Origin: a virus
Lineage: Duplodnaviria > Heunggongvirae > Uroviricota > Caudoviricetes
IMG/VR virus record: IMGVR_UViG_2917403263_000004
Span: 1-37,272 of that record
DNA: 37,272 bases
Strand: one strand, 5' to 3'
In this document: piece by piece, positions 936-18,464 of the stretch
How positions within the stretch are numbered: the first letter of the stretch is position 1
Layout: every line of letters starts with the position of its first letter
Made by a program: the position numbers and the translations under genes
The notes under the pieces: generated by a model
The model's database searches: none
Seen by the model: the letters and a program-made list of their open reading frames with translations, nothing else
What the model was told of the DNA's origin: nothing

Positions 936-974
936 TGTGTGGTGGGGCGTTTATGTGGCTTTTATGTCGGGTTA

Positions 975-2672
975 TCAGGCGATAAGGTCGCCGTATTTTT
1001 CACGCAGACTCGTGGCCTGTTGGGCATCTGCGGCAAGTTCGCCGCTGTTCATCGGTGCGCCAGTGTTGCTGTGGGTGTGGTTTGCTGTATGTGTGGCCAG
1101 CAATTGAATCAGGTCCAGAATATCAGTCAGCAACGTCAGCAGGTTAAGCCCGGACTTTTCCCGCGAGCCGCTGCGACCAATAAACACTGTCGGGGCGGTA
1201 AACTCCAGACCGCCGTCCGCCCTGCATGTTCTGCGGCCTCCCACGTTTTCAGTCAGGTCGTGCTCAATCGTTGACGTTGCGCCTTTAAGTTTAGTCAGCA
1301 AATCCTGCGCCACCATCTGGATGTGTTCGCCGGCTGCGATCGCGTAATTGCCGGTAGTAAGGTGTTCTGTCTGGCCTGTCATCAGCTTGCTGGTACCAAG
1401 AACACTGGTTATGTCGTTTGCCTGGACTGTTGTTGTTCTGGTTGTTGTTGTGCGTTCTTCCTGGTCGCTGTTAATGGTTCGCCTGGCAGAATGCTCCCTG
1501 ATTTGCTGGTCGGTTTCCCTGTGCCAGCTTCCGTCAGTCGTGACACGCTGAAACACTTCTGCGCGCTGTTGCTGCAACTGTTCGCCGGGCTTTACATCAG
1601 GCAGGTTATGTCCGGCAGGTAAGATTTGCCTGATGACAGGTTTATCCGGGCGGCCTTCAATACTGGATATTTCCACGATGGTGCCTGCCGGTGGGTAGGC
1701 AAAACATCCCGCCTCGCTACCAGCCATCGGGACAGGGAGCGGTACTGCCGGGTAAACAGGCGTATCGCTTTTGTCGTTGCCGTTCTCATCAAGCAGCTGC
1801 ACGTCCACGGCGTAGCGTGGGCGGAAACTGTCGGCTACATCGCCCAGGGTGGCGGATTCCGTTGGTGCGACGACCCGCGCCAGTCTGGTGTGTAGTGTAC
1901 CGCTGGCCAGTTCCGGAAACTGCGTTTCCATCTGTCTGCGCAATGGTGATTTGGAAACAGGGCTACCCGTGGCGGTGAGGCGCTCCCATGTCAGTGTCAT
2001 TTTCTCGTTGTTGAGGGCTACACGGGTAATACGCCCGGCCGGAAGATTCACACCCGGCCGCACGGTTTCCATGAACATGATGTCGATGCTGTTTCCGCCG
2101 CTTTGCCCGAGTGTGTACTGTTGCGGAATATCGGGCATGGTAATGCTGGCAAACCGTGAATCAGCTGCGTTTCCCACAAATACAGAACCGTCCGGCATGG
2201 GGTGCCAGACGTAATCGCTGATACTGAATGAGCGCCCCAGCTGGCTGAGTAACTGCGTCCCGCTGCCGCTGTGGGTGATGTAGGGAGTTGGTGTGCTGAC
2301 ATAATCCGCATCTGGCGTGATAAAAACGATACCGCTTTGTCGCCCCAGATTATCGAGCACATCCCGCAACGTCGGGTGTTGCATGGAGCAGGGGAAATCA
2401 AAATCCAGCACAGCAGCTGCTTCACGGATAAAAAGGCGACGTGAGCCATTTTCGGCCGGTTGATCGCGTTCTATGTAGCCAGAGAAATAGCGCCAGGCCT
2501 CACCATTACGGCCGAGATCGATTTGCACCATTGCGCCGGCAAGGCTTTTTTCTGGTGACAGATTGTTAACAGAAACGAAGCCGCGACCGGCAGCATTCAG
2601 GGTGAGAGCAAGGCTGATATCGGCAATTTCCACCTGTTCGCCATTGATCATGCAGCGTTGTATCAATTTCAT
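975..2672 (-). CDS. Putative baseplate hub protein (gpD / Mu gp44-like N-terminus with long C-terminal extension)
   Basis: 565 aa, last gene of the tail operon. ATGA start/stop overlap with the upstream gene. The N-terminal pattern (VQIDLGRNGEAWRYFSGYIERDQ ... QHPTLRDVLDNLGRQSGIVF) resembles the gpD/late-control-D family, recalled from memory. Weak assignment. Confidence 0.45.
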   Translation of the reverse strand: MKLIQRCMINGEQVEIADISLALTLNAAGRGFVSVNNLSPEKSLAGAMVQIDLGRNGEAWRYFSGYIERDQPAENGSRRLFIREAAAVLDFDFPCSMQHPTLRDVLDNLGRQSGIVFITPDADYVSTPTPYITHSGSGTQLLSQLGRSFSISDYVWHPMPDGSVFVGNAADSRFASITMPDIPQQYTLGQSGGNSIDIMFMETVRPGVNLPAGRITRVALNNEKMTLTWERLTATGSPVSKSPLRRQMETQFPELASGTLHTRLARVVAPTESATLGDVADSFRPRYAVDVQLLDENGNDKSDTPVYPAVPLPVPMAGSEAGCFAYPPAGTIVEISSIEGRPDKPVIRQILPAGHNLPDVKPGEQLQQQRAEVFQRVTTDGSWHRETDQQIREHSARRTINSDQEERTTTTRTTTVQANDITSVLGTSKLMTGQTEHLTTGNYAIAAGEHIQMVAQDLLTKLKGATSTIEHDLTENVGGRRTCRADGGLEFTAPTVFIGRSGSREKSGLNLLTLLTDILDLIQLLATHTANHTHSNTGAPMNSGELAADAQQATSLREKYGDLIA

Positions 2673-3244
2673 GTTTTCCCTTCCTCTTTCGCGCTTCCGA
2701 TGCCAACAGCATCCAGACCAGAGCCAACGGCATCATTGATTTTTTTCCAGAATGAACTTTGCGTATTCATGCCTTTGTCTGGCACCTGTTCGCTGCCGTT
2801 CTGTGTTTGCTGTTTTGCAATTGTTTTCTGTGAGCCGCTACGTGCAGATGCTTTCTCTGGTACGCTTAATTTTTCTCTGAGGGTAAAGGTGACCTGCCAG
2901 TGCATCTTGCCCTGTTGTTCCGTGGCATCGATGCCGCCGGAAAAAACACCCTGTCGCATATTAATCGCCTTAGCGGTAGCGTTGGCGATGCGGTATGTTT
3001 TTTTGGCCCCGTTACCTTCAGTTGCTTCGGCAAGCTGAAAAATACGGGTCAGAATGGCCTCATCGTTAAAATCAATGACACCTGACACGCGCAGTTCTTT
3101 TGCCTTGTTTCCCTGCTGAGCGCTTGTGGTGCTGGTTGACTGCCCGGACATGTCTTTATCCGGTAGTTGCATGGTGGCACTGACGGTGATGTTGCGCAGC
3201 AGAATGGCCTCTCCGTCAAGCGCAAGAACAATTATCTGGGTCAT
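2669..3244 (-). CDS. Tail-operon protein of unknown function (possibly gpU-like)
   Basis: 191 aa. Translationally coupled: ATGA overlap with the downstream gene and a 29-nt overlap with the upstream gene. Position between the fibre cassettes and the hub-like gene. No confident motif. Confidence 0.4.
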   Translation of the reverse strand: MTQIIVLALDGEAILLRNITVSATMQLPDKDMSGQSTSTTSAQQGNKAKELRVSGVIDFNDEAILTRIFQLAEATEGNGAKKTYRIANATAKAINMRQGVFSGGIDATEQQGKMHWQVTFTLREKLSVPEKASARSGSQKTIAKQQTQNGSEQVPDKGMNTQSSFWKKINDAVGSGLDAVGIGSAKEEGKT

Positions 3245-3929
3245 GTAGTGCTTCCCTTAGTGATGAGAGTTCATCGCCGACAAACAGCATCACGGCGGTA
3301 AAAACCCACTCCGGGTGTGGAATGTTTTTTTGTATCAGTGCCGCAGTCTGATTAAGTGTTCCCTTGTTGCAAAAACGCCACACCGGACAGAATTGTTGTC
3401 TGAGTGCTGTCTCTCGCCCGGCAATTTCCTGCAAAATTTTATCTCTCGCTTCCCTGAACTGATGAAGTGACGATGACAATGTTTCCGGTGATGTGGCTGC
3501 TGGGGTGGCTGCCTGCGCAATGGTTGCCGCCAGTGTCATGCCACGGGTTGTCTGTGTTGACAGCGTTATCGGCTCCGGAAGTGATGTTGCCGGCCTGGCG
3601 GGGAGTTGCATTCTGCTGATGGCCAGCGAAAGCTGGCTGGAGATCATGCGGGACATTCGCCCCACCTCCGGCAACGGAAATGCACCTGAAAATTGCCTGG
3701 CGAGTGATAAAAATTCGTCAGCGGACGGGGCGCAGAGTAACAGCGCCACAACGTCCTTTTCTGTGCTTTCTGTCAGGTACGGTAAAAGTGCGGATACCGC
3801 ATTGTCCGGACTGAGATAACGCCCGGATGGTGTAATGTTTCCCGTATTTTCTGACCACGGATGAAGGCAGACCACTGAACAGCTGATGTTCATGGCTGCC
3901 GGGCGCAGAATGGCCTTTTCCCATTTCAT
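3216..3929 (-). CDS. Hypothetical tail-operon protein
   Basis: 237 aa. ATG at 3929 overlaps the stop of the upstream tail-fibre assembly gene (ATGA). Low-complexity Ala/Thr/Pro/Ser-rich middle region. No recognisable family. Confidence 0.4.
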   Translation of the reverse strand: MKWEKAILRPAAMNISCSVVCLHPWSENTGNITPSGRYLSPDNAVSALLPYLTESTEKDVVALLLCAPSADEFLSLARQFSGAFPLPEVGRMSRMISSQLSLAISRMQLPARPATSLPEPITLSTQTTRGMTLAATIAQAATPAATSPETLSSSLHQFREARDKILQEIAGRETALRQQFCPVWRFCNKGTLNQTAALIQKNIPHPEWVFTAVMLFVGDELSSLREALHDPDNCSCA

Positions 3930-4498
3930 TCTGCCTTGCCCACCTGAAATGCGCGAATTTCTGCGAGATTATTCAGTTTAGTCAGTGTGTTTTTCATCTC
4001 CCGCTGGCGCAGATAAATCTCATTGTTGCGGGTAACCTGTGCCTGAACCATTGCCGTCAGCAGTTCGTCCAGTTGCTGCACGGAGAGTTTCACCTGGCGG
4101 TTGTTCGCGTCGTTCCATGTCATAACGCTTCGTGCCGTGTCAGATTTTGCCAGCATCACCACCGGAGACAATCTGTCCACTGAAACAGGGCCGGCATCCC
4201 AGATTCGCTTTTTCCATTCGAATGTGAACGACCGCGCTTCCTGTTCTGTGCGCCATGCTTCAATTTCCCGACGCTTGGCTGTTTTTGCTGCTTCCAGTAT
4301 TTCCGGTGTCACAGTGAACGGAGCTATCTCCCCCCATTTACCGCTTTGCAGTTCCTGCCAGATTTTCTGGCCTGTTGGCGCCGTATCATCTGCCGTCGCT
4401 GTATACGGCAGTGCTTCGCCCATTCCCTCGAGCAGTACGTCACAGTCAATTGCACCACTTTCGATATAACGGGCGTTTTCGATTTTTTTTATTTTCAT
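3926..4498 (-). CDS. Tail fibre assembly / chaperone protein (cassette 2)
   Basis: 190 aa immediately downstream of tail fibre 2. Size and position are typical of Tfa/gpG-type fibre chaperones. AGGTGAT RBS. Confidence 0.55.
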   Translation of the reverse strand: MKIKKIENARYIESGAIDCDVLLEGMGEALPYTATADDTAPTGQKIWQELQSGKWGEIAPFTVTPEILEAAKTAKRREIEAWRTEQEARSFTFEWKKRIWDAGPVSVDRLSPVVMLAKSDTARSVMTWNDANNRQVKLSVQQLDELLTAMVQAQVTRNNEIYLRQREMKNTLTKLNNLAEIRAFQVGKAE

Positions 4499-4548
4499 AA
4501 ATCACCTATGCTGTACGTATAAACAAACCAATCATGACACCGAACGTA

Positions 4549-6555
4549 TCAGCCGATCCCATCATGTCGCCAGACAATGCCCGGTACCGTTCCCGGCAAA
4601 CCTGCTCCTGAATCACGAAAATAAGCAGATACGTTGCCGTCGTATACGCCGGCCACGTTACTGGTGAAATGGCCCTTAAATTCAACCGCGCTAAGACGCG
4701 AGCCAGGGTAATAATAACCCCGCATTATCCGGCGATTCTGGTCTGAAGAGTCACTTCCTCTGTATGCGGCCAGCACCAGACTGCCTGTGCCGTACCAGGC
4801 GTCTGTGGCTCCCGGAGCAATGCCTGACAGAAGATCGATAACGTTCTGAGTGGTAAATTTCAGTGATTCCCAGCCGATGAGATAGCCATTTCCACTTGTC
4901 CAGTAGCGGTTGTGATAAATATTGCCGTTAATGCCATAGAAAGTAATGACCTTTACTGTATGACGCGGGTTCGGCACTCCATACTCTGACTCAACCCAGC
5001 GAATACGAACCATTCCTTTGAACAGCACGTCCGGTATAATTTTATTGCTGCCGTCAACAAGATATTCTCCCGGTTCTGCCTTCCTTACCCACGCAAGAAA
5101 ATCATTTTCTGAGTTAAACCTGATGACCTCGTCAGGGAGAAAGATATGACCAAAGCCGAACGCGCCAGGTATAGCCAGGCGGTCTGCCGTGCGGTCATGA
5201 ATGTCACCCTGCGGCTCCAGTGTGGCAGCTTTTCCAAGCTCAAGGATCGTGTGCATGTCTGCCAGTGTTTCCTGCATCAGCAGAGTGCGCGCCATTTCTG
5301 ACAGTGTGGAAAGCGAAGCATTCCCTTCCGTATCAAAGCACAATAATTTGTCTGCCCGCGCTTTCAAATTGCTGATGGCGGTTAACACGTCACTGAGAGG
5401 TTGCTTGCCTGCCAGCGCGTTGGTGACTGTTGTTGCAAAGTTCGGGTCATTGCCCAGCGCCGCCGCCAGTTCGTTCAGCGTGTCCAGGGCTTCGGGAGAT
5501 GAATCCACCAGTGCAGCGAGCAGTTTGCGGACAAACGCCGCATTTGCGATTTCTGTCCCCGTGGCATCATCAGGCGGTGTCGGGGTTTTCGGAGCGCCGG
5601 TAAAGACCGGACTGTACAGGGTGGCTCTGGCGTTGATTAACGTTAAGAAGTACGCCTCATTTGTCTTCAGGTTATCCCAGCCAGTCAGATAACCACCGCT
5701 GAGAGGCCAGTAACGGTTGTAATAAACATCTCCGTTAACGGTGTATAAAATAATGGCTTTTGCCATATGTTGCGGTTCTGGTGGATTGCGGTTCGCCTCC
5801 AGAAACCGGATATTAATTACACCACAGTAGCCACCGGGTAACACACCATTGGCCCCCTGTACAGAATACTCTCCGGGCGTTGCCTGCTTGACCCATGCTA
5901 GGAGGTCTTTTTCTGTATCAAACCGGATAAGCTCGCCTGGCAGAAACATGTGACCAAAACCAAATGCGCCCGGTATCGCCAGCCGGCCTTCCGTGCGGTC
6001 GTAAATATCACTCTGCGGCTCCATTGTGGCGGCATTTTTCAGTCCCAGATTATCACGGGATTCCTGTTGCGCCTCTTCACCTTCTGCCGCAATTTCTGAC
6101 AGGTGGTTAGCCGTTTTCAGCATTGTTTTCAGTTCCGGATAAATATCCATCTGCCAGCTCTGTGGGGGAACCGTGATTTGTGCAGCCTGAGCCATACCAC
6201 TGTAAGTGATTGCAAAATTACGAAGAAGAGTTTCCCCCACATGTTTGTGGTGAACAGGAGTTTTTATTACACCGCATAGCGTGCCACTTGCCTGGTGAAC
6301 AAGACAAATCCAGTCATAACTGAATTCGGCGTCTTCAGTGACTGCACCGCTACATACAATGCTGTTTGGGGTCAGTTGTCCGTAGGTGAGTTTGTTTACG
6401 GTATAAGTAATTTTTTCCGGTGGAATAATATTATCTTCCGGGCTGGGGTCGCGATTCATTAGTGCAAATACGATGGCATCCGGCCGGGCAGGTAAATTGC
6501 CGGCAATGCATTTTGCAATCCATTTTTCAAATGCTTTCGTTAATAATGCGCTCAT
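4549..6555 (-). CDS. Tail fibre protein 2 (receptor-binding fibre with internal tandem domain repeat)
   Basis: 668 aa. N-terminal about 150 aa homologous to the N-terminus of fibre 1 (PARPD..VFA, EF.Y.WI.L, G.LC motifs). Contains the classic fibre motif DTLNELAAALGNDPNFATTVTNALAGKQP. Two diverged copies of a domain of about 130 aa (aa 165-297 and 433-566). Confidence 0.7.
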   Translation of the reverse strand: MSALLTKAFEKWIAKCIAGNLPARPDAIVFALMNRDPSPEDNIIPPEKITYTVNKLTYGQLTPNSIVCSGAVTEDAEFSYDWICLVHQASGTLCGVIKTPVHHKHVGETLLRNFAITYSGMAQAAQITVPPQSWQMDIYPELKTMLKTANHLSEIAAEGEEAQQESRDNLGLKNAATMEPQSDIYDRTEGRLAIPGAFGFGHMFLPGELIRFDTEKDLLAWVKQATPGEYSVQGANGVLPGGYCGVINIRFLEANRNPPEPQHMAKAIILYTVNGDVYYNRYWPLSGGYLTGWDNLKTNEAYFLTLINARATLYSPVFTGAPKTPTPPDDATGTEIANAAFVRKLLAALVDSSPEALDTLNELAAALGNDPNFATTVTNALAGKQPLSDVLTAISNLKARADKLLCFDTEGNASLSTLSEMARTLLMQETLADMHTILELGKAATLEPQGDIHDRTADRLAIPGAFGFGHIFLPDEVIRFNSENDFLAWVRKAEPGEYLVDGSNKIIPDVLFKGMVRIRWVESEYGVPNPRHTVKVITFYGINGNIYHNRYWTSGNGYLIGWESLKFTTQNVIDLLSGIAPGATDAWYGTGSLVLAAYRGSDSSDQNRRIMRGYYYPGSRLSAVEFKGHFTSNVAGVYDGNVSAYFRDSGAGLPGTVPGIVWRHDGIG

Positions 6556-7112
6556 TATTCTTTATTCTCATTAATAGTTTGCGACAGCTCCGGCCACGCG
6601 ATCGCGGCATACGCTGTTTTATCCGTAATCAGGCTAAAATCCATCACCTGCAATTCCTTTGCGTAAATACGATATGCTCTCAGCTTTTCTTTATCTTCGT
6701 CGCTGATTAACCCCAGCAACAGGTCTTTTTCCCAGTCAGCAGTTAACCGGCTTACATCCTTGAGCTTCCTCACTCGCTCATCTTCTGCCTTTTTACCGTA
6801 ATCAAATATGAATTTACCATCCCGGTAAAACCAGTAACCCGATATATCAATTCGTCGGTTAGCTGTGTTATCTGTCACTTCAATCACGCTCCTGTTTCTG
6901 GGGTTAATTGACGCAACATCTTTGCCAACCCAGGTAACTTTTCCTGTATCCAGATATTCGACTTTTAATGTGTCAGGTGAAAAATCTTTCTGAATCTCAT
7001 ACCAGTTTTCACCAGATTCTGCATACAACCACTCGACGCCATATCTTTTAGTTAACTCATATTGTTCGGCTGTTTTCGGATTGCCCGACGTAATATTTTT
7101 TAAGTGCAACAT
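6555..7112 (-). CDS. Tail fibre assembly protein (cassette 1)
   Basis: 185 aa directly after fibre 1. C-terminal region (LRAYRIYAKELQVMDFS...AWPEL) resembles the conserved Tfa C-terminus. Its stop overlaps the fibre 2 start (TAATG). Confidence 0.6.
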   Translation of the reverse strand: MLHLKNITSGNPKTAEQYELTKRYGVEWLYAESGENWYEIQKDFSPDTLKVEYLDTGKVTWVGKDVASINPRNRSVIEVTDNTANRRIDISGYWFYRDGKFIFDYGKKAEDERVRKLKDVSRLTADWEKDLLLGLISDEDKEKLRAYRIYAKELQVMDFSLITDKTAYAAIAWPELSQTINENKE

Positions 7113-7114
7113 AA

Positions 7115-8773: not shown

Positions 8774-9405
8774 GCGTTATTTGCCTGTAATGTGTAATGC
8801 TCCACGGACAGGCCGTAATGTCCTGCCTGTAGTGAAGCGGTTAACCAGATGGTGTCCTTTCTCACCGTTGCTTCTGCTGTGTGGTACCGGTAGTGACCAT
8901 CAAACGTGCCGGCTGTCAGTCGGGCGGTGGTTGCATTGATCACCTGAAAGAAATAGCGCCTGCAGGTACGGCCATACTGGCGCACGAGCTGCATCATCAG
9001 CGCGTTGCTTTCACTCAGCTGGGTGTCATTAATGCGCAGTAAAATAACGTCCCAGTCATGTTGCAGTTGTCGCTCCAGTGTTTTAACGTCTCCCACGCCA
9101 AGACGTTTAAAGATGCGCTCGAAGCCGGCGCGTTCGCCTGAGTCCTGAGCGTTGATAAATGCGTGTTTTACCCTCAGGCGAAATAACGAAACCGGCTCCC
9201 CCTTAAATCGGGTGATGTTGCGCTGGTATGCCAGCAGGTTAAGTAAAGGCTCTGCGCAGGTGTCGACATCAATCTGCTGTAGTGGCCACGTCAGCCAGCT
9301 CCAGACCTTTTCCCAGTAGCGATGCGATGAATGTGCAAGCGTCAACGGCTCACCTTTATTCATCCAGGTGGGAAGTGGAAATTCGGGTATCTCCGGAAGT
9401 TTCAC
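8770..9405 (-). CDS. Baseplate protein (P2 gpI / Mu gp48-like, tail-fibre attachment)
   Basis: The track ORF (8770..9555) overlaps the J-like gene by 150 nt. The likely start is GTG at 9405, preceded by GGAGGTG and overlapping the J-like stop (GTGA). An alternative ATG lies at 9363. Position between the J-like and fibre genes as in P2/Mu. Confidence 0.5.
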   Translation of the reverse strand: MKLPEIPEFPLPTWMNKGEPLTLAHSSHRYWEKVWSWLTWPLQQIDVDTCAEPLLNLLAYQRNITRFKGEPVSLFRLRVKHAFINAQDSGERAGFERIFKRLGVGDVKTLERQLQHDWDVILLRINDTQLSESNALMMQLVRQYGRTCRRYFFQVINATTARLTAGTFDGHYRYHTAEATVRKDTIWLTASLQAGHYGLSVEHYTLQANNA

Positions 9406-10589: not shown

Positions 10590-10929
10590 GGGATACCGTA
10601 AAAGTCAGGGGTTCAAAAAAATCTTCTGTATGGGCGTTAATCAGCAGGCGACCGGAAAGAGGTGATTCCTCCGTTACACTGACGGTGCCCGGCGTGATGC
10701 GTTCATCATCCTCAATCAACAGTGTCATCTGCATCATGATGTCGGCGCGAAGTGTCTGGCTTTTTTCTGCCAGCAGACGTGTGGCCAGTCCGCTTTCAAT
10801 GATGGCGTGCTGGCAGTCCTGGGCGATACTTTCCCTGTTGTTGCACAGCACTGGTTCGGCGGCGCTGTTCAGCGTGAAGTTGCGACCGGTGATGAGCAAA
10901 TCGATGTAAAGAGGCTGGTCAGTAAGCAT
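10579..10929 (-). CDS. Baseplate wedge protein (gpW / gp25-like)
   Basis: Start taken at internal ATG 10929 (GGAG RBS; 11-nt overlap with the tape measure stop) rather than the track start 11067. About 116 aa, with a C-terminal pattern resembling P2 gpW. Confidence 0.5.
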   Translation of the reverse strand: MLTDQPLYIDLLITGRNFTLNSAAEPVLCNNRESIAQDCQHAIIESGLATRLLAEKSQTLRADIMMQMTLLIEDDERITPGTVSVTEESPLSGRLLINAHTEDFFEPLTFTVSLDD

Positions 10930-13015
10930 GTAGCTCCATCCATTCGTTAAGACGGGCAGGGGATGCGTCCTGCACGTTGACATTGACCACGCGGCGGGAG
11001 TTGTCGATTGTGGTCTGGTTTTCGCTGTTGTTCCGCATCTCTGCCGCAATGCCGCCCGGTCCTGCACTGATGGCTTTTCCGCCGGTTAATACGGAGCCTT
11101 CGCCGCTCCCTGCGCTTTCTGGCGTGTCGATGTTAACGCCGGGGATCATGTTGAGTTTGTCCACAATCCAGCCCCATGAATCACTGAAGGACTGTTTCAC
11201 CAGCTCCCAGAGGTTGCTGAAAATCTTCAGTATGCCGCCGGCGATATTCTTCAGGGCGTCCAGTGGTGAATGCGTGGAAAAATAGTTAACCAGTGCATTC
11301 CAGCCATCCCGGATTGCGCCCCATGCCTTGTCGAAGCATGTCCCCATACTGCCAACCATTCCCGCCACCCACTGAAAGGCGGCGGTGTCCATCAGTGCGG
11401 CCTTGATTTCATCCCAGCGGGTGATCAGGAAATAAATGCCCACACCCAGCGCAGCCAGTGCCAGGATGATTAACGTAATTGGGCTGAAAAGTAGTTGAGT
11501 GGCAACAGCTGCACCGCTGGTAACGGCGGTATAAATTTTCATGGCCACCGCAGTGGCCCCCAGAGCAATGGAGTAAAGCCAGAGTCCGGCACGCTGTAGT
11601 TTCAGCAGCGCCAGCTGAATTTTTGCTTTGATGTTGTATGTTCCCATTACAAGGGTCATGGCCAGATACAGCGCCCTGACCGTTCGGGCGACGGCACAGA
11701 ATGCCCACATGGTGGCAGTCAGCATGCGTTTCAGCAGAATAAGGATTTTCAGAGGCGCAGTAGCTGCCAGCCAGACCAGCCGGAGCCCGGTCCAGACAAA
11801 CTTTGCTGCGCCCACCACAATGTTTGTCACGGCCCCCACGGCAGCAATGCCCAGCAGTGCACCGGTCAACAGGCCAATGGCGCGGGTGATATTGGGGTAC
11901 AGGCGTAACCAGGCAACAAAGGATTTACCGCCTTCGTTGCTTTTCTGGATGAACGGGTACAGAACGGGCAACAGCTGTGTGCCGATTTCAATACGAATGC
12001 CGTTAATAATTGCGGCGGCCTGTTCCCACGGGTCGGCCATGGCCTGCGCCATTTCGACAGCCTTATCCATGCCTTTGATATTGCCCAGCGTGGCGATATT
12101 CTTTTCCAGTCCGCCAATGTCTGCATTGAGCAATTTAATCATGGCCACGGCCTCATCAGAGCCAAATGCGCTTTTCAGCAAATCGGAGTCAGCCACTTTT
12201 GACAGATCACCAAATTTGCCTCTGATAAGTTTCATGATCTCGACAACACTTTTCATCGTGCCGTCTTTATTCACGAAATTAAGCCCCAGCTTTTTCTGGG
12301 CGCTGCCTACAGCGGCCAGAAATGATTTGTACTTTGTCCCGGCCTCACTGCCGCTCATGGTAGCCTGCAACTGCCCCAGCACGGCGAACTGTTCAGCCGC
12401 ATCAATACCGGCTGCTTTTGCACTGGCACCCAGCGTGGTGAACGCTGCCGACATGTTATCGCCGGTTGTTTTAAACATCTGCACGGCGGTGGCGGTTTGT
12501 CCGGCAACCTGCTCAACCCATTTGCTTTTTCCCATGGCATCAGCCTGGTCTTTAAAAATGCCGTACATGGTGCCCATGTAGGCGGTAATTGTCTGGCTGC
12601 TGGATTTGGTTGCCGCAGCCACTGTTGCTGATGCGGTGGTGAAACGGGAGAGTTCATCGTCAGTTAATCCGGCGATGGCTGACTGGATATCATAAGAAGC
12701 ACGTACAAAATCCTGCGCCGCGCCGCCGTATTCCATAGTGAAATCAACGGCGGCCCGACTGAGTTTACGCAACCCGGATTCCGCGACGCCCAGTGACTTC
12801 ACCTCACCGAGCGCCCGGTCCATTTCAATAGCCGGCATCAGTGCGCCTTTCACGGCGGCACCCACGCCCCAGAGTGCAGCGCCACCGGTGGCGATATTGC
12901 GGAAGGCTCCCCGGCTTGTTGCGGCGAATCCCTGAACCTGTCGGCCCGCCGCACGTAACGGTCTTGTCAGGCGGTCTGTCAGTTCAAGAAGTAATTCAAG
13001 ACGCTGCTGTGACAT
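10919..13015 (-). CDS. Tail tape measure protein
   Basis: 698 aa, Ala/Gly-rich with long predicted helices and a central hydrophobic block (LLTGALLGIAAVGAVTNIVVGAAKFVWTGL...). Lies immediately downstream of the frameshifted chaperone pair. Confidence 0.8.
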   Translation of the reverse strand: MSQQRLELLLELTDRLTRPLRAAGRQVQGFAATSRGAFRNIATGGAALWGVGAAVKGALMPAIEMDRALGEVKSLGVAESGLRKLSRAAVDFTMEYGGAAQDFVRASYDIQSAIAGLTDDELSRFTTASATVAAATKSSSQTITAYMGTMYGIFKDQADAMGKSKWVEQVAGQTATAVQMFKTTGDNMSAAFTTLGASAKAAGIDAAEQFAVLGQLQATMSGSEAGTKYKSFLAAVGSAQKKLGLNFVNKDGTMKSVVEIMKLIRGKFGDLSKVADSDLLKSAFGSDEAVAMIKLLNADIGGLEKNIATLGNIKGMDKAVEMAQAMADPWEQAAAIINGIRIEIGTQLLPVLYPFIQKSNEGGKSFVAWLRLYPNITRAIGLLTGALLGIAAVGAVTNIVVGAAKFVWTGLRLVWLAATAPLKILILLKRMLTATMWAFCAVARTVRALYLAMTLVMGTYNIKAKIQLALLKLQRAGLWLYSIALGATAVAMKIYTAVTSGAAVATQLLFSPITLIILALAALGVGIYFLITRWDEIKAALMDTAAFQWVAGMVGSMGTCFDKAWGAIRDGWNALVNYFSTHSPLDALKNIAGGILKIFSNLWELVKQSFSDSWGWIVDKLNMIPGVNIDTPESAGSGEGSVLTGGKAISAGPGGIAAEMRNNSENQTTIDNSRRVVNVNVQDASPARLNEWMELHAY

Positions 13016-13212
13016 TACGATCCTTTAAAAGCGCGAATAATGCCGTTATTGACGGCGATACCCATATTTCCCCAGTAGTGGTTATCCAGCCAGACGGCGG
13101 CAGCCAGTGACTGCGGCGAATCATCTTCGCCGGGCAGCCAGTGGCGGCGCAGGATTAGCATCCGGGTCAGGTCATTGCGATCAATGGCCCCCAGATGGCT
13201 TTTTATTTTTTT
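13015..13212 (-). other. Programmed -1 frameshift extension of the tail chaperone (G-T / E+E'-like fusion product)
   Basis: Slippery run A7 at 13206..13212 at the end of the chaperone ORF. The -1 frame stays open for about 65 codons (KKIKSHLGAIDRNDLTRMLILRRHWLPGEDDSPQSLAAAVWLDNHYWGNMGIAVNNGIIRAFKGS) and stops at TAA overlapping the tape measure ATG (TAATG). Confidence 0.5.
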
Positions 13213-13496
13213 ACGGTGATTTCCACTTCCGGTACGAACTCGTTATTCACGGCCGTTGCCAGGCTTGCCGGCATTCCTGGCTTTTCCAGCAACTGATTCA
13301 GCAGATCGCGGTGGTCTTTAATCACGATGCGGCGCAGGTAGTTTTTCAGTGGCGCGATTTTGTTATCCGGCATGAAGTCGTTCTGCAGGTCGTTGTAGGC
13401 TTTAACTGTCGGGATAAACGTCAGTTCATGCTCGCCCACCTGTAAAGTGATGGTGTTTTCTGCAGTGGTTTGGGTGTTTTTATCGTTCATCATCAT
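13203..13496 (-). CDS. Tail assembly chaperone (G / gpE-like, frame 0 product)
   Basis: 97 aa, acidic, directly upstream of the tape measure gene. Ends in GTA AAA AAA TAA. Confidence 0.6.
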   Translation of the reverse strand: MMMNDKNTQTTAENTITLQVGEHELTFIPTVKAYNDLQNDFMPDNKIAPLKNYLRRIVIKDHRDLLNQLLEKPGMPASLATAVNNEFVPEVEITVKK

Positions 13497-13582
13497 TTCC
13501 TGTTAATGTCAAGAATAAGAGGGCTTAATAAGACCATCAGGAGGCTTATTAAGACTGTCGGTGGCCTTATCCCGTATCGGAA

Positions 13583-13924
13583 TCAGCGCACGCCGTTGTG
13601 CTCAAGGCTGAAATGATTGCCATCCGGGCGGTTTTTAAAACGACCGCCCCATGCACCGCCAAGGGATTCCCAGTACTCGCCCAGTTCGCGGTAGGCCTCT
13701 GTGCGGGTCTGATATTCACCGTTAATAAACAGATTAAAATCCACTGCCAGCCGCTGGCAGTGCAGGCTGTTGGCAGTGCCGGATCCCTTTTGCGCATTGA
13801 GTTTTGCCTGCTCCGGCGTGCGGTACGCTTCACCGAATGTCAGGCCATAACCGCGCTGATGGGCAAACTGGATGAGTTTGCCGACCATGACGGTAAATTG
13901 TTGTTGCTTATCGGAGAGTTTCAT
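13583..13924 (-). CDS. Endolysin, peptidase M15 family (zinc D-Ala-D-Ala carboxypeptidase-like)
   Basis: 113 aa with SLHCQRLAVDFN and DGNHFSLEH, the H..D and H..H metal-binding motifs of M15 peptidases. Follows the holin. Confidence 0.7.
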   Translation of the reverse strand: MKLSDKQQQFTVMVGKLIQFAHQRGYGLTFGEAYRTPEQAKLNAQKGSGTANSLHCQRLAVDFNLFINGEYQTRTEAYRELGEYWESLGGAWGGRFKNRPDGNHFSLEHNGVR

Positions 13925-14025: not shown

Positions 14026-14030
14026 CGCTG

Positions 14031-14327
14031 TTACTCCTCTTTGTTTTCTTTCTCGCCCAGCTTCCGGCGCATATGGCGCAGGAAAATTTCAACAATCTGG
14101 TAGCCGGCTACGCCCATTGCGGTGCCAGCGCCGGCAATAGCCAGCGGGTCAAGATTCGGATAACGAACCAGCAGGGCTGCAGCAGAAACACCCAATGCGC
14201 TACCCAGCAGGGTTCGCCCCACAAACAACCGCAATGTAATCGGCTCCGCGCCAGCCAGCACCCGGCTGGCGGCGGCAATGCCGCCAAGAATGCCCAGGGT
14301 GATGATGGTGCGTTCATGCTCCTGCAT
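14031..14327 (-). CDS. Holin
   Basis: 98 aa with two hydrophobic segments (IITLGILGGIAAASRVLAG, TLLGSALGVSAAALLV) and a charged C-terminus (RHMRRKLGEKENKEE). Immediately upstream of the endolysin. Confidence 0.6.
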   Translation of the reverse strand: MQEHERTIITLGILGGIAAASRVLAGAEPITLRLFVGRTLLGSALGVSAAALLVRYPNLDPLAIAGAGTAMGVAGYQIVEIFLRHMRRKLGEKENKEE

Positions 14328-14330
14328 GGT

Positions 14331-14786
14331 TCACCCCATCAGCCCGCGCACGTCGTTCTCTGAGAGAACGGGCACGCCGTTGATACGCACAAAATCGGGG
14401 CTGGCCACCACGTACTTGATTTTGTGCGTGGTCAGGTCTGCACTCCCGGTGTCAATGCTTAACAACCCGGAGAGCATCAGCTCGCAACCGAAGGCTTCGA
14501 CGCGGATTTCCTCGGTACCGGTGTTGGCGTAGAACACAAAATCCATTGGCGGCAGATCGCGCCATGATCCTGCCTGAGCGGCCACTTCCCCTAGCTGGTT
14601 AAAACTGCGGGTGCTCATTTCAATTTCACCTTCGGCACTGACGGGGCCGCGCAGTTTGCCGTCAGGGATGCCACGGGTTTTGGCAACGGCGCTTTCATCA
14701 CTGATGTCCAGCGAGATGTTATTCACATGGATATCCGTTCCACCGATAAAGGTGTCAAACGCCATGCCGTTAATGCGGGTGGTCAT
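14331..14786 (-). CDS. Putative tail tube protein
   Basis: 151 aa directly downstream of the sheath-like gene (4-nt overlap). Size and position fit a tube protein. No strong motif. Confidence 0.5.
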   Translation of the reverse strand: MTTRINGMAFDTFIGGTDIHVNNISLDISDESAVAKTRGIPDGKLRGPVSAEGEIEMSTRSFNQLGEVAAQAGSWRDLPPMDFVFYANTGTEEIRVEAFGCELMLSGLLSIDTGSADLTTHKIKYVVASPDFVRINGVPVLSENDVRGLMG

Positions 14787-15931
14787 GCACTTTCCTCCAG
14801 AGATTTATCCAGCTGAATGCCCACCTTGATGGTTTTGGGGCAAGCGTAAGGGCGAACAACAATGCTGATACTGACCGTCTTTTCGTCCTGCCAGGTGATG
14901 GCCACATCGCCTTTTTGTGGCGATTTCACTTCGCCCGGAAAGGTGACACCGTTAATCTGCTTGGATTTCGCCATGGTACGCAGCGGGCGGGCAAACAACG
15001 TTTCATGTGCGGCAATGCTGCCCGGTGTGCTGTTCAGTGAACGATCGGCAATTTTGGGGATGGCCATCAGTCGCACGCGGCGCGCCACCTTATCTGCAAT
15101 GCGGACATGCTCAATGACGTTGTAGTCCCCGCCTTCCACCTCAAGTGTCACACCATCAGCCCAGTAAAGGCCGTCATAGTCGGCATACCACATGGGCACG
15201 CTGTAGCGGGCGGTAGCCAGTGCCTGCAGGGTGGCGAGATCAATTGCCTGTCCTGCGCTGTCCTTCGGACGTTCTGTGGTTTTCAGTGCAGACAGAGCCC
15301 CGGTTGCCACGCGTGCGGGACTGTCAGCAATGGTGACGGCGTTGTTACACAGGCGACCGGCAAGAACGCCCGGTTCAAATCCAAAAATCTCCGGAACCAG
15401 CATGACCTGCGGGGCTGCAATACCTTTCTGTAGCGTGGTCAGTTCGGCGACGTATTCCGCCCAGGTTTTACTGCCGTCGTTGGCGGTGATGGTCAGGATG
15501 AACCAGATGCGGCGCTGATATTTATTAATGATGGTCTGACGTAACGCCTGTATGGCGTTGATGTCATCCTTCGTGCTGACCGGTTCAGTGATCACCACGC
15601 CTTCAACTGAAATGGTTTCCTGAGCGGCCAGCACGGCGTTTTGCCATGCCTGGCAGGCCGGCGTTGCTTCTTTGCCTTTGCCTGCGTCCGGCAGAACGGC
15701 GACATAAAAAAAGGCATTCTGTCCAGCATTGGTCAGAGCGGACTGAAGGAAATTTTTCAACGGGCTCGCGTTCGTTCCCAGCAACTCATCCAGATCGCTG
15801 TTGGCGTTAACCGGCAGAACTTTGCCTTTGTTGTTTTGTGCGCTACCCACAAACAACAGTGTATTTTCCACGCCGTCCGGCGAGCTACTGAACGTGTTGT
15901 ACTGTTCAATCGTGACAGATGGCCAGGTCAT
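14783..15931 (-). CDS. Putative tail sheath protein
   Basis: Start taken at internal ATG 15931 (CAGGAG RBS, 8-nt spacer) rather than the track start 16015, giving 382 aa. Followed by the tube-like gene. Confidence 0.5.
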   Translation of the reverse strand: MTWPSVTIEQYNTFSSSPDGVENTLLFVGSAQNNKGKVLPVNANSDLDELLGTNASPLKNFLQSALTNAGQNAFFYVAVLPDAGKGKEATPACQAWQNAVLAAQETISVEGVVITEPVSTKDDINAIQALRQTIINKYQRRIWFILTITANDGSKTWAEYVAELTTLQKGIAAPQVMLVPEIFGFEPGVLAGRLCNNAVTIADSPARVATGALSALKTTERPKDSAGQAIDLATLQALATARYSVPMWYADYDGLYWADGVTLEVEGGDYNVIEHVRIADKVARRVRLMAIPKIADRSLNSTPGSIAAHETLFARPLRTMAKSKQINGVTFPGEVKSPQKGDVAITWQDEKTVSISIVVRPYACPKTIKVGIQLDKSLEESA

Positions 15932-15950
15932 AATTTGTCTCCTGATTTTG

Positions 15951-16664
15951 TTATCTCGTGCCGCCGTAATGCAGGCTACGCAACTGCGCTTCCAGAATGC
16001 GGGTAAATTCAGCATCGCTGGCTCCCAGAAATGCGCGGGAGGGGATTTTTATTTCCCATACACGTTTTTTCTGCTCGCCTTTCAGAATGCTGATCACCAG
16101 TCCGGCCTGCGCCATACTCATGTTTTCCATAATCCATTTCAGGGAGGGCTTTCTGCGTCCCCTGCGTCCGGTTTTTTTGCTGACTGCGCCGACGGGGGCG
16201 CGAAAGCCCAGAGAAAGAAGCCGCTCCGCCTGCCGTCGTGTGGCGGGTCGGGTGCGCATGGTTTCGTTGTTCCGGCGTTTTGTGGCGCGACCTTTGATGG
16301 TTGCACCGTGCTGTTGCACCCACGCGACCGCCCCGCCATGAGAGCCGGTGTTGTAGCCCCCTTTTTTGAAGAAAAGGCGGACACTTTTCCCGTTACTGTC
16401 AACCCTGATGGCCAGCAGTTTTGGCAGTCCCAGCAGCATTTTGTTTTTATACTTACCGCTGGCTTTATCTGGTCTTTTTCGTGGTGCCCAGGCTGCCCCT
16501 TCCGGTGTTCTCTGTGCTTTCACATTGCGTCGTGCAGCTGGCATCAGGCCGTATTTCGCAATACGAACCAGCAGCTTTCTGGCCTTTACCGGCGGAAGTT
16601 CTGCCGCTCTGATGGCGCGATGAACCTGCCGGAGCTGTGATTCATTAATCGCAGGGCGCGTCAT
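15951..16664 (-). CDS. Virion morphogenesis / tail completion protein (gpS-like)
   Basis: 237 aa with an Arg/Lys-rich middle region. Position between gpR-like and sheath genes. Family assignment from general resemblance only. Confidence 0.45.
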   Translation of the reverse strand: MTRPAINESQLRQVHRAIRAAELPPVKARKLLVRIAKYGLMPAARRNVKAQRTPEGAAWAPRKRPDKASGKYKNKMLLGLPKLLAIRVDSNGKSVRLFFKKGGYNTGSHGGAVAWVQQHGATIKGRATKRRNNETMRTRPATRRQAERLLSLGFRAPVGAVSKKTGRRGRRKPSLKWIMENMSMAQAGLVISILKGEQKKRVWEIKIPSRAFLGASDAEFTRILEAQLRSLHYGGTR

Positions 16665-17134
16665 GGCATCACCTGACAGTGAAGCTGATGTGCCTGAGCC
16701 ACCCAGATTTCAGGTTTTTCCAGCCGGTAACGTTTTCCGCCTCTGGGGATGGGGCCGTTTTCATCCTCAATCAGGGTGATGGGATCAACCAGCGGCAGAC
16801 TGATTTCCAGCCATGCCACTTCATTTTCATCATCCACTTCGACGTCCACGGCTGGCGCATCCGGTGTCAGGCGCTGTCGCAGGTCGCCGCCGTTGTCTGC
16901 CAGCCAGGCTTCAACCAGAGAAAACACCAAATCCGGATCGAGCTGACGATAGGGCCATGCGTCCCATCGCAGAAAAGCCGTATATTTTCTGGCCTGCGTA
17001 CATAACTGCCCGTGCCCCAGCGACTTTGTGAGCGGAACGAGCGTGATATCATCCATGTCACTGGTGAACGGAATGCGTGCGCGTGCCGGCAGATTGTTTT
17101 CAATGAATGCCGTCAGGCTTGCGAGTTGCGTCAT
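16661..17134 (-). CDS. Putative tail completion protein (gpR-like)
   Basis: 157 aa. ATGA-type overlap with the downstream gene. Located right after the head-completion gene, as R is in P2-like phages. Confidence 0.4.
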   Translation of the reverse strand: MTQLASLTAFIENNLPARARIPFTSDMDDITLVPLTKSLGHGQLCTQARKYTAFLRWDAWPYRQLDPDLVFSLVEAWLADNGGDLRQRLTPDAPAVDVEVDDENEVAWLEISLPLVDPITLIEDENGPIPRGGKRYRLEKPEIWVAQAHQLHCQVMP

Positions 17135-17143
17135 ACCGTTTCC

Positions 17144-17638
17144 TTAATCAATCAGCGCGACAGAGGCGCGCGGTCTGCCCAGCAGCGCACGCACCGCCAT
17201 GGCCGCTTCAGCCAGCAACGTCCGGCGGCTCTCGCTGGCTTCTGATGATGGCTGCGCTTCGCGCCGCCCCACACTGGCAGATTCCGGCAAAAGATCGGCC
17301 TTTGCGCGCGCATACACAGCCTTGGTGTACAGTGCTGTAATGTGGTTCTGCATCCGTTCTGATTGTGCATCCGTATTGCGCGGCTCTGGTTGCAACACGG
17401 TGTAACCCGGAATATCAGCAGCCCGGATGTGGCCCTGTTCCTGCCAGTATTCACGGCGCGCAGCCAGTTCAGTGTTAATCTCTGTTACCGCGCAAAGCAG
17501 CGCCGTCAGCACCGTTTCGTGTGACGTGACGGCGGGGATGCTGCGGCTCTTTTCAAAATCGCCGGCATTAATATCCGGCCAGAATCCATCGTTCTGAATA
17601 ATGGCCTGCTGATAGTGAATGCTTTTCCCGTCAAACAT
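17144..17638 (-). CDS. Head completion/stabilisation protein (gpL-like)
   Basis: Start taken at ATG 17638 (GGAGTG RBS); the track ORF starts at a GTG at 17701. Contains GFWPDI, typical of gpL. About 164 aa (P2 gpL is 169 aa). Confidence 0.6.
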   Translation of the reverse strand: MFDGKSIHYQQAIIQNDGFWPDINAGDFEKSRSIPAVTSHETVLTALLCAVTEINTELAARREYWQEQGHIRAADIPGYTVLQPEPRNTDAQSERMQNHITALYTKAVYARAKADLLPESASVGRREAQPSSEASESRRTLLAEAAMAVRALLGRPRASVALID

Positions 17639-17736
17639 GCTCACTCCGAGGAAAGGCGGGCTGACCGGTTTCCGCAGTGTGCTGATGGCTTTTGCCGGCA
17701 CACCTCCACCGCGCCCGCCCGGTTGTTGGGAGTCGT

Positions 17737-18447: not shown

Positions 18448-18464
18448 ACCGCGCACTCCGTTTA

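What the first reader, a model, noticed from the sequence alone, without database searches (positions are those of the whole stretch)
975..17701. Late-gene order departs from P2 synteny
Observed order is L, R-like, S-like, sheath, tube, lysis, chaperone, tape measure, W, J, I, fibres, then three further tail genes and a D-like hub. P2 has lysis after L, the baseplate/fibre block before the sheath, and T-U-D at the end. No gpV-like spike gene was recognised; it may be one of the three terminal genes or fused to the hub-like 565-aa protein. This suggests a distinct lineage or mosaic tail module on a P2 head/replication backbone.
Basis: partly seen in the sequence, partly recalled or inferred. 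Interest (0 to 1): 0.45.

Follow-up and report, generated by a model that had tools for sequence, protein, structure and literature searches.

The report
HP1-type tail gene order in prophage
The unusual order of the tail genes is real, but it is the standard layout of the long-known HP1/K139 branch of P2-like phages, in which the missing spike gene is fused to the hub gene, so the finding is ordinary.

Summary
On the minus strand, 17701 down to 975, profile HMMs give this order: gpL, gpR, gpS, sheath, tube, holin, endolysin, tail chaperone, tape measure, DUF2590 (gpW position), gpJ-like, gpI-like, two fibre/chaperone pairs, HP1-orf33-like, HP1-ORF34-like, and a 565-aa protein. P2 and 186 have a different order.

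The layout is not new. Every late gene except the lysis genes and fibre chaperones has its best match, in the same order, in Haemophilus phage HP1 (orf20-orf35), Vibrio phage K139 and the ESSI-2-like enterobacterial phages. Four Pfam families defined on HP1 proteins hit well above threshold. The head genes are also closer to these phages than to P2, so this is not a recent mosaic.

Published work already describes the HP1 versus P2 subgroups, the deeply diverged tail module and the gpD-gpV fusion in HP1.

The only distinctive feature is a tandem pair of tail-collar fibre genes. Interest is low.

The parts
17144..17701 (-). gpL-like head completion / head-tail adaptor. Longest ORF is 185 aa. 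The likely ATG is at 17638 (164 aa), as annotated in the E. coli relative.
   Evidence: PF05926 99 bits, phrog_71 E 1e-36. 35% identity to HP1 orf20 and 40% to K139 orf20. Start checked.
16661..17134 (-). gpR-like tail terminator
   Evidence: PF06891 61 bits, phrog_65 E 3e-22. Matches HP1 orf21 and K139 orf21 in order.
15951..16664 (-). gpS-like tail completion protein (237 aa, longer than P2 gpS)
   Evidence: PF05069 37 bits, phrog_26 E 2.5e-24. It is one of the few late proteins outside the fibre and lysis genes that still hit P2 by tblastn (gpS, 30% identity, E 3e-5).
14783..15931 (-). HP1-type contractile tail sheath (382 aa from the ATG at 15931; the longest ORF runs to 16015)
   Evidence: phrog_907 'tail sheath' E 7e-148, DUF2586 431 bits. 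47% identity to HP1 orf23 and 57% to the ESSI2_ev015 sheath. No tblastn hit to P2 FI.
14331..14786 (-). HP1-type tail tube
   Evidence: Pfam Phage_HP1_Orf24 171 bits, phrog_1182 E 5.5e-65. 50% identity to HP1 orf24.
14031..14327 (-). holin (P2 gpY family), first gene of the lysis cassette that sits between the tube and chaperone genes
   Evidence: PF04550 98 bits, phrog_175. 39% identity to P2 Y and 47% to ESSI2 holin. HP1 hol/lys occupy the same position between orf24 and orf25.
13583..13924 (-). M15-family endolysin (113 aa)
   Evidence: Peptidase_M15_4 46 bits, phrog_1768/465. 76% identity to ESSI2_ev015 endolysin.
13203..13490 (-). tail assembly chaperone (P2 gpE equivalent)
   Evidence: Phage_TAC_10 92 bits, phrog_1214. 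39% identity to HP1 orf26.
13015..13213 (-). -1 frameshift extension of the chaperone (P2 E' equivalent). The slippery heptamer A AAA AAA lies at the end of the chaperone ORF. The -1 frame then stays open to the TAA that overlaps the tape-measure ATG.
   Evidence: Sequence read directly. The -1 frame product hits phrog_7050, E 1e-27. PGAP calls it DUF6890 in the E. coli relative. Frameshifting itself is inferred by analogy with P2 E/E'.
10919..13015 (-). tape measure protein (698 aa)
   Evidence: phrog_28 E 2e-94, PhageMin_Tail 102 bits. 37% identity to HP1 orf27.
10579..10929 (-). DUF2590 protein in the gpW (sheath initiator) position (116 aa from the ATG at 10929)
   Evidence: PF10761 121 bits, phrog_1237. 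57% identity to HP1 orf28. The link between HP1 orf28 and P2 gpW comes from published HHpred, 17% identity (PMC10612066 Table S1), and was not tested here.
9402..10586 (-). gpJ-like baseplate wedge protein
   Evidence: Baseplate_J 110 bits, phrog_6 E 6e-63. 56% identity to HP1 orf29 and 63% to ESSI2.
8770..9405 (-). gpI-like baseplate wedge / fibre-attachment protein (211 aa from the GTG at 9405)
   Evidence: phrog_1228 E 7e-80; Tail_P2_I 21.8 bits against a 20.6-bit cutoff. 48% identity to HP1 orf30.
7115..8773 (-). tail fibre 1 (552 aa) with an N-terminal tail-collar domain
   Evidence: PF12571 100 bits, Phage_fiber_2, phrog_8239 E 2e-98. The N-terminus is 36% identical to HP1 orf31. Internal pieces match P2 H and Mu S.
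6555..7112 (-). tail fibre assembly protein (P2 gpG / Mu U family)
   Evidence: Caudo_TAP 72 bits, phrog_136 E 5e-51. 36% identity to P2 G and 49% to Mu U'.
4549..6555 (-). tail fibre 2 (668 aa), a second gene with the same N-terminal tail-collar domain
   Evidence: PF12571 30 bits, phrog_2636 E 4e-101. The N-terminus is 36% identical to fibre 1 over 157 aa. Residues 308-494 are 46% identical to P2 gpH.
3926..4498 (-).
   Evidence: DUF4376 52 bits, phrog_1141 'tail fiber protein' E 2e-80. No counterpart in HP1, K139 or ESSI2. The role is inferred from position.
3216..3929 (-). HP1 orf33-like protein (237 aa), role unassigned. Probably a minor baseplate or assembly component.
2669..3244 (-). 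HP1 ORF34-family baseplate complex protein (191 aa), a candidate gpU-like tube initiator
   Evidence: PF25759 182 bits, phrog_1398. 47% identity to HP1 orf34. The gpU equivalence is called 'uncertain' in PMC10612066. hhalign against P2 gpU gave no signal here.
975..2672 (-). 565-aa fused baseplate hub (gpD / Mu gp44 / T4 gp27-like, about residues 1-250) and central spike (gpV / gp5-like OB domain at about 310-347, then a putative beta-helix and C-terminal helices). The architecture is VgrG-like.

Best explanation
The region is the complete late (neck, tail, lysis) gene block of a temperate myovirus prophage of the HP1-like subgroup of Peduoviridae (HP1, HP2, K139, phiO18P, ESSI-2-like phages).

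Its gene order is the normal one for that subgroup:
- neck proteins (L, R, S)
- sheath and tube
- a lysis cassette
- a tail chaperone with a -1 frameshift extension
- tape measure
- the wedge block (DUF2590/W-position, J-like, I-like)
- fibres with their assembly proteins
- last, the inner-baseplate genes: orf33-like, ORF34-like (possibly the tube initiator) and a single polypeptide that combines the hub (gpD equivalent) and the membrane-piercing spike (gpV equivalent), as VgrG does in type VI secretion systems.

The 22 genes from O to the hub-spike gene are co-directional, and they overlap or are separated by at most 187 nt. They are therefore most likely expressed as one long late transcription unit, not the separate O, V and F operons of P2 (inferred, not shown).

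The difference from P2 is an old, lineage-wide property and not a rearrangement in this genome.
For: - HMM assignments for all 19 late ORFs. These include four Pfam families defined on HP1 proteins, far above their cutoffs: Phage_HP1_Orf24 171 bits, DUF2586 431 bits, DUF2590 121 bits, HP1_ORF34 182 bits.
- tblastn of the window proteins gives strictly monotonic, same-strand hits in HP1 (16585 to 32157), K139 and ESSI2_ev015 for every late gene that has a homologue.
- Against P2, only gpS, the holin, fibre pieces, gpG and the head genes hit. Against Mu, only fibre and Tfa pieces hit.
- Head proteins are also closer to HP1-type phages than to P2. P is 53-56% identical versus 43%, Q 41-54% versus 37%, and N 59% to ESSI2 versus 28%.
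- The sheath and the 565-aa protein each find the same set of about 75 phage records: Vibrio, Escherichia, Pseudomonas, Pseudoalteromonas, Salmonella, Pasteurella, Haemophilus, Aeromonas.
- The same layout occurs at 88-91% nucleotide identity in 19 complete E. coli genomes.
- Literature: PMC2771037, PMC10612066 and PMC7312051.
- Gene spacing is -29 to +187 nt.
Against: - hhalign of the family alignments against single P2 gpD, gpV and gpU sequences gave no signal. The P2 equivalences therefore rest on fold, position and published HHpred.
- No equivalent of P2 gpX (the LysM glue protein) was found.
- The roles of the orf33-like and ORF34-like proteins are not established.
- The single-operon idea is untested. 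The consensus scan found no informative promoters or terminators.
- This copy may be defective, because its gpA and int genes are frameshifted.
Confidence: 0.93

Rival explanations
1. Recent mosaic: a tail module from a phage outside the Peduoviridae (for example a Mu-like phage) recombined onto a P2-type head/replication backbone in this prophage or its immediate ancestors.
For: - By BLAST the tail proteins have no detectable similarity to P2.
- Sheath-tube-chaperone-tape measure is also the Mu order.
Against: - Head and tail genes are jointly collinear with HP1, K139 and ESSI2, and the head genes are themselves closer to those phages than to P2.
- Mu gives no hits except fibre and Tfa pieces.
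- In Mu the hub and spike genes follow the tape measure directly, whereas here they are last.
- There is no GC step at the head/tail junction (0.55-0.58 on both sides).
- About 75 phage genomes share both the sheath and the hub-spike protein.
Confidence: 0.03
2. On the origin of the layout: the HP1-type order arose by in-place block rearrangement and fast divergence of an ancestral P2-type tail operon set. The alternative is ancient capture of a separate, older contractile-tail paralogue by the ancestor of the HP1 clade, as PMC10612066 proposes.
For: - gpR, gpS, Baseplate_J, Tail_P2_I, the fibre collar and the Tfa families are still shared with P2 at the HMM level.
- The hub genes sit at the end of the block in both layouts.
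Against: - Sheath, tube, tape measure and hub show no BLAST-level similarity to P2, whereas the head genes do.
- The published sheath timetree puts the HP1/P2 sheath split near the base of the myovirus radiation, much deeper than the portal split.
Confidence: 0.3
3. Artefact: the order results from misassembly, or from wrong functional guesses, and the true order is P2-like.
For: Frameshifts in gpA and int suggest that either decay or indel errors are present in this sequence.
Against: - All late ORFs are intact and tightly packed.
- The identical order occurs in independent complete E. coli chromosomes and in isolated phage genomes.
- The HMM assignments are strong.
Confidence: 0.01

Closest known systems
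Haemophilus phage HP1 / HP2 (Hpunavirus) late region orf20-orf35
   Same: Identical order of functions: L, R, S, sheath, tube, hol-lys, chaperone, tape measure, orf28, orf29, orf30, fibre, Tfa, orf33, orf34, orf35. All shared genes are collinear. Both have the fused hub-spike (orf35; and PMC10612066 footnote). The lysis genes lie between the tube and chaperone genes.
   Different: - Only 24-57% amino-acid identity.
- The holin here is P2-Y type and the endolysin M15 type, whereas HP1 has a pinholin and a SAR endolysin.
- HP1 has one fibre gene, and the window has two fibre cassettes.
- HP1 has an Rz-like orf25, and no spanin was found here.
ESSI-2-like enterobacterial phages (e.g. Escherichia phage ESSI2_ev015, Quadragintavirus; Salmonella SI7; Yersinia vB_YenM_324)
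   Same: These are the closest isolated phages. Sheath identity is 56-58%, J-like 63%, hub-spike 45-47% and endolysin 76%. The whole structural region has the same order and orientation, including the divergent P-Q genes.
   Different: - No megablast-level DNA similarity apart from a 274-nt endolysin piece.
- They have a single fibre cassette.
- They carry an Rz-like spanin.
- They have no ParM-like gene.
Unnamed prophages in E. coli chromosomes (e.g. EC42405 NZ_CP043414, STEC316 NZ_CP041431)
   Same: 88-94% nucleotide identity. Same genes in the same order, including the two tail-collar fibre genes, DUF6890, ParM, ogr-like and gpA genes.
   Different: - The fibre and chaperone genes are only 58-70% identical.
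- The second fibre is degraded in EC42405.
- gpA and int are intact in STEC316 but frameshifted in the window.
- The flank next to int differs: serS in the window, dmsA in STEC316.
Phage P2 / 186 (Peduovirus, Eganvirus)
   Same: - The head cluster is the same, with Q-P divergent from O-N-M-L.
- A gpA-type replicase and an ogr-like regulator are present.
- The gpR, gpS, J, I, fibre-collar and gpG families and the Y holin are shared.
- The chaperone has a -1 frameshift.
- The hub genes are at the end of the late block.
   Different: - In P2 the lysis genes follow L-X.
- V-W-J-I-H-G precede FI-FII-E-T-U-D.
- V and D are separate genes.
- gpX (LysM glue) is present.
- There are three rightward late operons separated by morons.
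- Sheath, tube, tape measure and hub have no BLAST-level similarity to the window proteins.
VgrG (type VI secretion) and the Afp8/Pvc8 spikes of extracellular contractile injection systems
   Same: The 565-aa protein has the same domain order in one chain: a gp27-like hub followed by a gp5/gpV-like OB domain and needle. These proteins are the top full-length Foldseek matches, with weak sequence hits at the OB domain.
   Different: - 9-15% identity in the fold alignments.
- The hub part is shorter (about 250 residues).
- The needle region is not confidently modelled.
- It is a phage virion protein, not a secretion-system component.

Membership tests
HP1-like subgroup of Peduoviridae | P2-family head cluster: portal and large terminase transcribed divergently from scaffold, capsid, small terminase and gpL | tested here: met
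   P (20614-22401, +) and Q (22394-23428, +) face O, N, M and L on the minus strand. All hit HP1, K139, ESSI2 and P2 homologues.
HP1-like subgroup of Peduoviridae | Late gene order L-R-S-sheath-tube-lysis-chaperone-tape measure-orf28-orf29-orf30-fibre-Tfa-orf33-orf34-orf35 | tested here: met
   tblastn coordinates are monotonic in HP1, K139 and ESSI2_ev015 and match their annotation tables.
HP1-like subgroup of Peduoviridae | Tail proteins belong to the HP1-type families and are much closer to HP1 than to P2 | tested here: met
   Phage_HP1_Orf24, DUF2586, DUF2590 and HP1_ORF34 are all above Pfam cutoffs. Sheath is 47% and tube 50% identical to HP1, and neither hits P2.
HP1-like subgroup of Peduoviridae | Hub (gpD) and spike (gpV) equivalents at the end of the late block. 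They are fused in HP1 and split in some members such as ACA1. | tested here: met
   The single 565-aa ORF aligns over its full length with HP1 orf35. The fusion in HP1 is stated in the PMC10612066 supplement.
HP1-like subgroup of Peduoviridae | P2-type early region: gpA rolling-circle replicase, tyrosine integrase, ogr-like late activator | tested here: inconclusive
   The families are present (phrog_91, phrog_1/11531, phrog_603). However, gpA is split over three frames and int over two in this copy.
P2-like phages in the strict sense (P2/186 gene order) | Order L-X-lysis-R-S, then V-W-J-I-H-G, then FI-FII-E-E'-T-U-D | tested here: not met
   In the window, sheath and tube follow S directly, the lysis genes follow the tube gene, and the wedge and fibre genes follow the tape measure.
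P2-like phages in the strict sense (P2/186 gene order) | Separate gpV spike gene and a gpX LysM glue gene | tested here: not met
   There is no separate Phage_base_V ORF, and the domain lies inside the 565-aa protein. No LysM or gpX hit was found in any late ORF.
Mu-like tail module | Tape measure followed directly by gp43, hub gp44 and spike gp45, then the wedge genes, with sequence similarity to Mu tail proteins | tested here: not met
   The hub-spike gene is last, after the fibres. tblastn against Mu hits only fibre and Tfa segments.
VgrG-like fused hub-spike proteins (architecture of the 565-aa protein) | N-terminal gp27 / Mu gp44-type hub fold | tested here: met
   [not shown]
VgrG-like fused hub-spike proteins (architecture of the 565-aa protein) | gp5/gpV-type OB domain following the hub in the same chain | tested here: met
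   [not shown]
VgrG-like fused hub-spike proteins (architecture of the 565-aa protein) | Trimeric beta-helical needle | tested here: inconclusive
   Gp5_trimer_C hits 11 of 30 members and Gp5_C 7 of 30. There are weak profile hits to the T4 gp5 helix at residues 408-498. The monomer model is unstructured there, with pLDDT 28-42. Trimer modelling was not available.

The most novel reading that the evidence does not exclude
Among HP1-type phages, this prophage lineage alone carries two tandem tail-fibre genes that share the N-terminal baseplate-attachment (tail-collar) domain. Each has a different distal part and its own accessory gene (Caudo_TAP versus DUF4376). If both fibres are assembled, particles would carry two receptor specificities, either as mixed fibres on one baseplate or as two particle populations. 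That would be a route to wider host range in P2-family phages without the invertible segments used by Mu and P1.
Probability: 0.3. Interest if true: 0.35.

Novelty: new member of a known kind. Interest (0 to 1): 0.1.

Why it matters
It matters little beyond correct annotation. The result shows that 'P2-like' prophages in enterobacteria include the HP1-type branch. In that branch the tail genes cannot be annotated by P2 synteny or by BLAST to P2, and the spike is hidden inside a VgrG-like hub-spike fusion that genome pipelines still call 'hypothetical protein'.

It also gives a parts list that leaves two conserved inner-baseplate genes (orf33-like and ORF34-like) without a demonstrated role, and no gpX equivalent. 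These are the open points for anyone solving an HP1-type baseplate, now that the P2 baseplate is described.

Tried and rejected
- Megablast of the late region against the phage collection found only a 274-nt endolysin piece and short fibre pieces. Close relatives are prophages only.
- phmmer and profile searches of the 191-aa and 237-aa proteins against PDB sequences gave only chance-level hits.
- hhalign of the three family alignments against single P2 gpD, gpV and gpU sequences gave probabilities below 1%. The alignments are shallow (Neff about 2) and the targets are single sequences, so this is weak negative evidence.
- Relaxed Pfam scans of all homologues of the 191-aa and 237-aa proteins found no Phage_P2_GpU or LysM hits.
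- The promoter/terminator consensus scan of 1-20000 found fewer promoter-like sites than the shuffles, and its terminator-like sites were mostly inside genes. It says nothing either way about operon structure.
- The ORF 13567-13833, embedded in the endolysin gene, and the 34-aa ORF 13920-14024 were tested as possible spanins. Neither hit any PHROG.
- The original HP1 genome paper (PMC145952) is not held in the library.
- A Mu-derived tail was considered and rejected.

Full report
**1. What is in the window**

The 37.3-kb window holds a P2-family prophage. Its right flank is serS (35980-37272, TIGR00414 E 3e-185).

All late genes from the scaffold gene O (19493-20383) down to the 565-aa ORF (975-2672) are on the minus strand. 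The large terminase and portal genes (20614-23428) are on the plus strand. No tRNA genes are present.

**2. Check of the observation**

PHROGs and Pfam scans of the 19 ORFs between 17701 and 975 give this order:
- gpL (PF05926)
- gpR (PF06891)
- gpS (PF05069)
- sheath (phrog_907, E 7e-148; DUF2586)
- tube (Phage_HP1_Orf24)
- holin (PF04550)
- M15 endolysin
- tail chaperone (Phage_TAC_10)
- tape measure (phrog_28)
- DUF2590
- Baseplate_J
- a gpI-like protein (phrog_1228; Tail_P2_I just above its cutoff)
- a tail-collar fibre plus a Caudo_TAP assembly protein
- a second tail-collar fibre plus a DUF4376 protein
- a 237-aa protein with no Pfam family
- an HP1_ORF34 'baseplate complex protein'
- a 565-aa 'baseplate protein' (phrog_2258, E 2e-232)

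Start codons refined against the PGAP annotation of an E. coli relative leave gene spacings of -29 to +187 nt along the whole block.

**3. What it is**

tblastn of 24 window proteins against five reference genomes settles the question.
- In HP1, K139 and ESSI2_ev015, every late protein that has a homologue hits in strictly the same order and orientation. In HP1 the matches run from orf20 to orf35, 16585 to 32157. Identities are 24-63%, apart from 76% for the ESSI2 endolysin.
- In P2, only gpS, holin Y, fibre segments, gpG and the head proteins hit.
- In Mu, only fibre and Tfa segments hit.

The annotation tables of HP1, ESSI2_ev015 and K139 show the same functional order. The sheath and the 565-aa protein each retrieve the same set of about 75 phage genomes from Vibrio, Escherichia, Pseudomonas, Pseudoalteromonas, Salmonella, Pasteurella, Haemophilus and Aeromonas.

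No isolated phage is close at the DNA level. However, 19 of 5426 complete E. coli genomes carry the same late region at 88-91% identity, with the same genes in the same order.

The head proteins are also nearer to the HP1-type phages than to P2. For example, the capsid protein is 59% identical to ESSI2 and 28% to P2, and the terminase is 53-56% versus 43%. GC content does not step at the head/tail junction. The element is therefore an ordinary member of the HP1-like branch, not a recent chimera.

**4. The missing spike**

Several lines of evidence place it in the C-terminal half of the 565-aa protein.
- The window protein has a sub-threshold Phage_base_V OB hit at residues 310-347.
- It gives weak PDB hits to the OB domain of VgrG1 and to Pvc8.
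- A profile of 30 homologues also touches the T4 gp5 beta-helix at residues 408-498.
- Scanned one by one, 29 of the 30 homologues hit Phage_base_V (best E 4e-5), 11 hit Gp5_trimer_C and 7 hit Gp5_C.
- Some homologues are named 'Gp5/VgrG OB-fold' or 'baseplate assembly protein V' by their sources.

An AlphaFold2 model is confident for residues 1-250 and poor for about 350-500, as expected for a trimeric needle modelled as a monomer.
- Foldseek ranks 15 full-length fused hub-spike proteins first, at E 2e-16 to 8e-13 over 558-700 alignment columns. These are T6SS VgrG and the Afp8/Pvc8-type spikes of contractile injection systems. Hub-only proteins come next, at about 300-335 columns.

The protein is thus a VgrG-like fusion of the gpD and gpV equivalents. 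The supplement of PMC10612066 says the same of HP1 orf35.

**5. The other terminal genes**

- The DUF4376 protein (3926-4498) has no counterpart in HP1, K139 or ESSI2 and sits directly after the second fibre. I assign it to that fibre cassette by inference.
- The 191-aa protein belongs to Pfam HP1_ORF34. Published HHpred links HP1 orf34 to P2 gpU only tentatively, and my hhalign test gave nothing.
- The 237-aa protein corresponds to HP1 orf33. It has no family beyond PHROGs, and its model matches no known fold. A homologue was detected in ACA1 virions.
- In P2, gpU is the tube initiator, gpX a LysM glue protein, gpD the hub, gpV the spike and gpW the sheath initiator (bioRxiv 10.64898/2026.09.14.750843). 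No gpX equivalent was found here.

**6. How it most likely works**

Shown: the gene content is a complete set for a contractile tail. It has neck proteins, sheath, tube, chaperone, tape measure, the wedge genes (W position, J, I), fibres with accessory proteins, and a hub-spike.

Shown from the sequence: the chaperone ORF ends in the slippery heptamer A AAA AAA. The -1 frame stays open to the TAA that overlaps the tape-measure ATG, and its product matches a conserved PHROG (E 1e-27).

Inferred by analogy with P2 E/E': a -1 frameshift produces the extended chaperone.

Inferred from spacing: the 22 co-directional genes form one late transcription unit. Consensus scans were uninformative.

Relative to P2, the layout differs by three block differences:
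- The lysis cassette sits after the tube gene.
- FI-FII-E-T precede W-J-I-H-G.
- V is joined to D at the very end.

Relative to Mu, the hub and spike are last, not directly after the tape measure.

**7. Comparison with the literature**

- Lavigne et al. 2009 split the P2-related phages into P2-like and HP1-like genera. [quoted passage not shown]
- The 2023 ACA1 paper in Viruses extends the HP1 subgroup and tabulates the same order with P2 equivalents. [quoted passage not shown]
- The HP1 lysis genes were mapped between the tube gene and orf25 (PMC7312051).

I could not decide between ancient module capture and in-place divergence.

**8. Verdict**

The element is a new member of a known kind, and interest is low (0.1).

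The only feature not seen in the 56 HP1-type phage records that carry the fibre collar domain is the tandem pair of collar-bearing fibre genes. Every one of those records has a single copy.

Noticed in passing
window 3926-8773 (-): There are two tandem tail-fibre cassettes. Fibre 1 (7115-8773) has a gpG/Mu-U-type assembly protein (6555-7112). Fibre 2 (4549-6555) has a DUF4376 protein (3926-4498). The two fibres share only the N-terminal tail-collar domain (36% identity over 157 aa). All 56 phage records that carry this domain have exactly one copy. The E. coli prophage relatives also have two, though the second is degraded in EC42405. GC falls to 0.444 at 6001-7000, which suggests an exchanged cassette.
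   Followed up: partly
window 26675-29326 (-) and 34861-35851 (+): The gpA-type replication endonuclease is split over three reading frames, with breaks near 28110 and 26930. The integrase is split over two frames, with a break near 35400. Both were compared with the intact 940-aa and 330-aa proteins of the E. coli STEC316 prophage. This copy is either a decaying prophage or the sequence has indel errors. All late genes are intact.
   Followed up: partly
window 13015-13213 (-): There is a canonical -1 frameshift site (A AAA AAA) at the end of the tail chaperone gene. A conserved -1 frame extension follows (phrog_7050, E 1e-27; PGAP 'DUF6890') and ends at the tape-measure start codon.
   Followed up: yes
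window 13496-14327 (-): No spanin gene was recognised in the lysis cassette. It holds a holin, an unassigned 34-aa ORF (13920-14024) and an M15 endolysin, and the chaperone gene follows directly. HP1 and ESSI2_ev015 have an Rz-like gene at this position. The ORF embedded in the endolysin gene (13567-13833) hits nothing.
   Followed up: partly
window 25636-26595 (-): There is a ParM-like partition gene in the early region (phrog_691, E 7e-90). It is annotated 'plasmid segregation protein ParM', next to a 'plasmid partitioning/stability' gene, in the E. coli relative. This is unusual cargo for an integrated P2-family prophage.
   Followed up: no
window 35980-37272 (-): The right flank is serS. 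Part of the query 17702-37272, most probably this flank, matches every one of 5426 E. coli genomes, nearly all at 90-95% identity. The host is therefore probably an Escherichia-like enterobacterium and not typical E. coli. In E. coli STEC316 the related prophage has dmsA next to int, whereas the window has serS there.
   Followed up: partly
window 23425-23751 (+): A small regulator gene lies just downstream of the portal gene (phrog_603 'transcriptional regulator', E 2e-31). The E. coli relative annotates an ogr/Delta-like zinc-finger late activator at the same place.
   Followed up: no
[not shown]
   Followed up: partly
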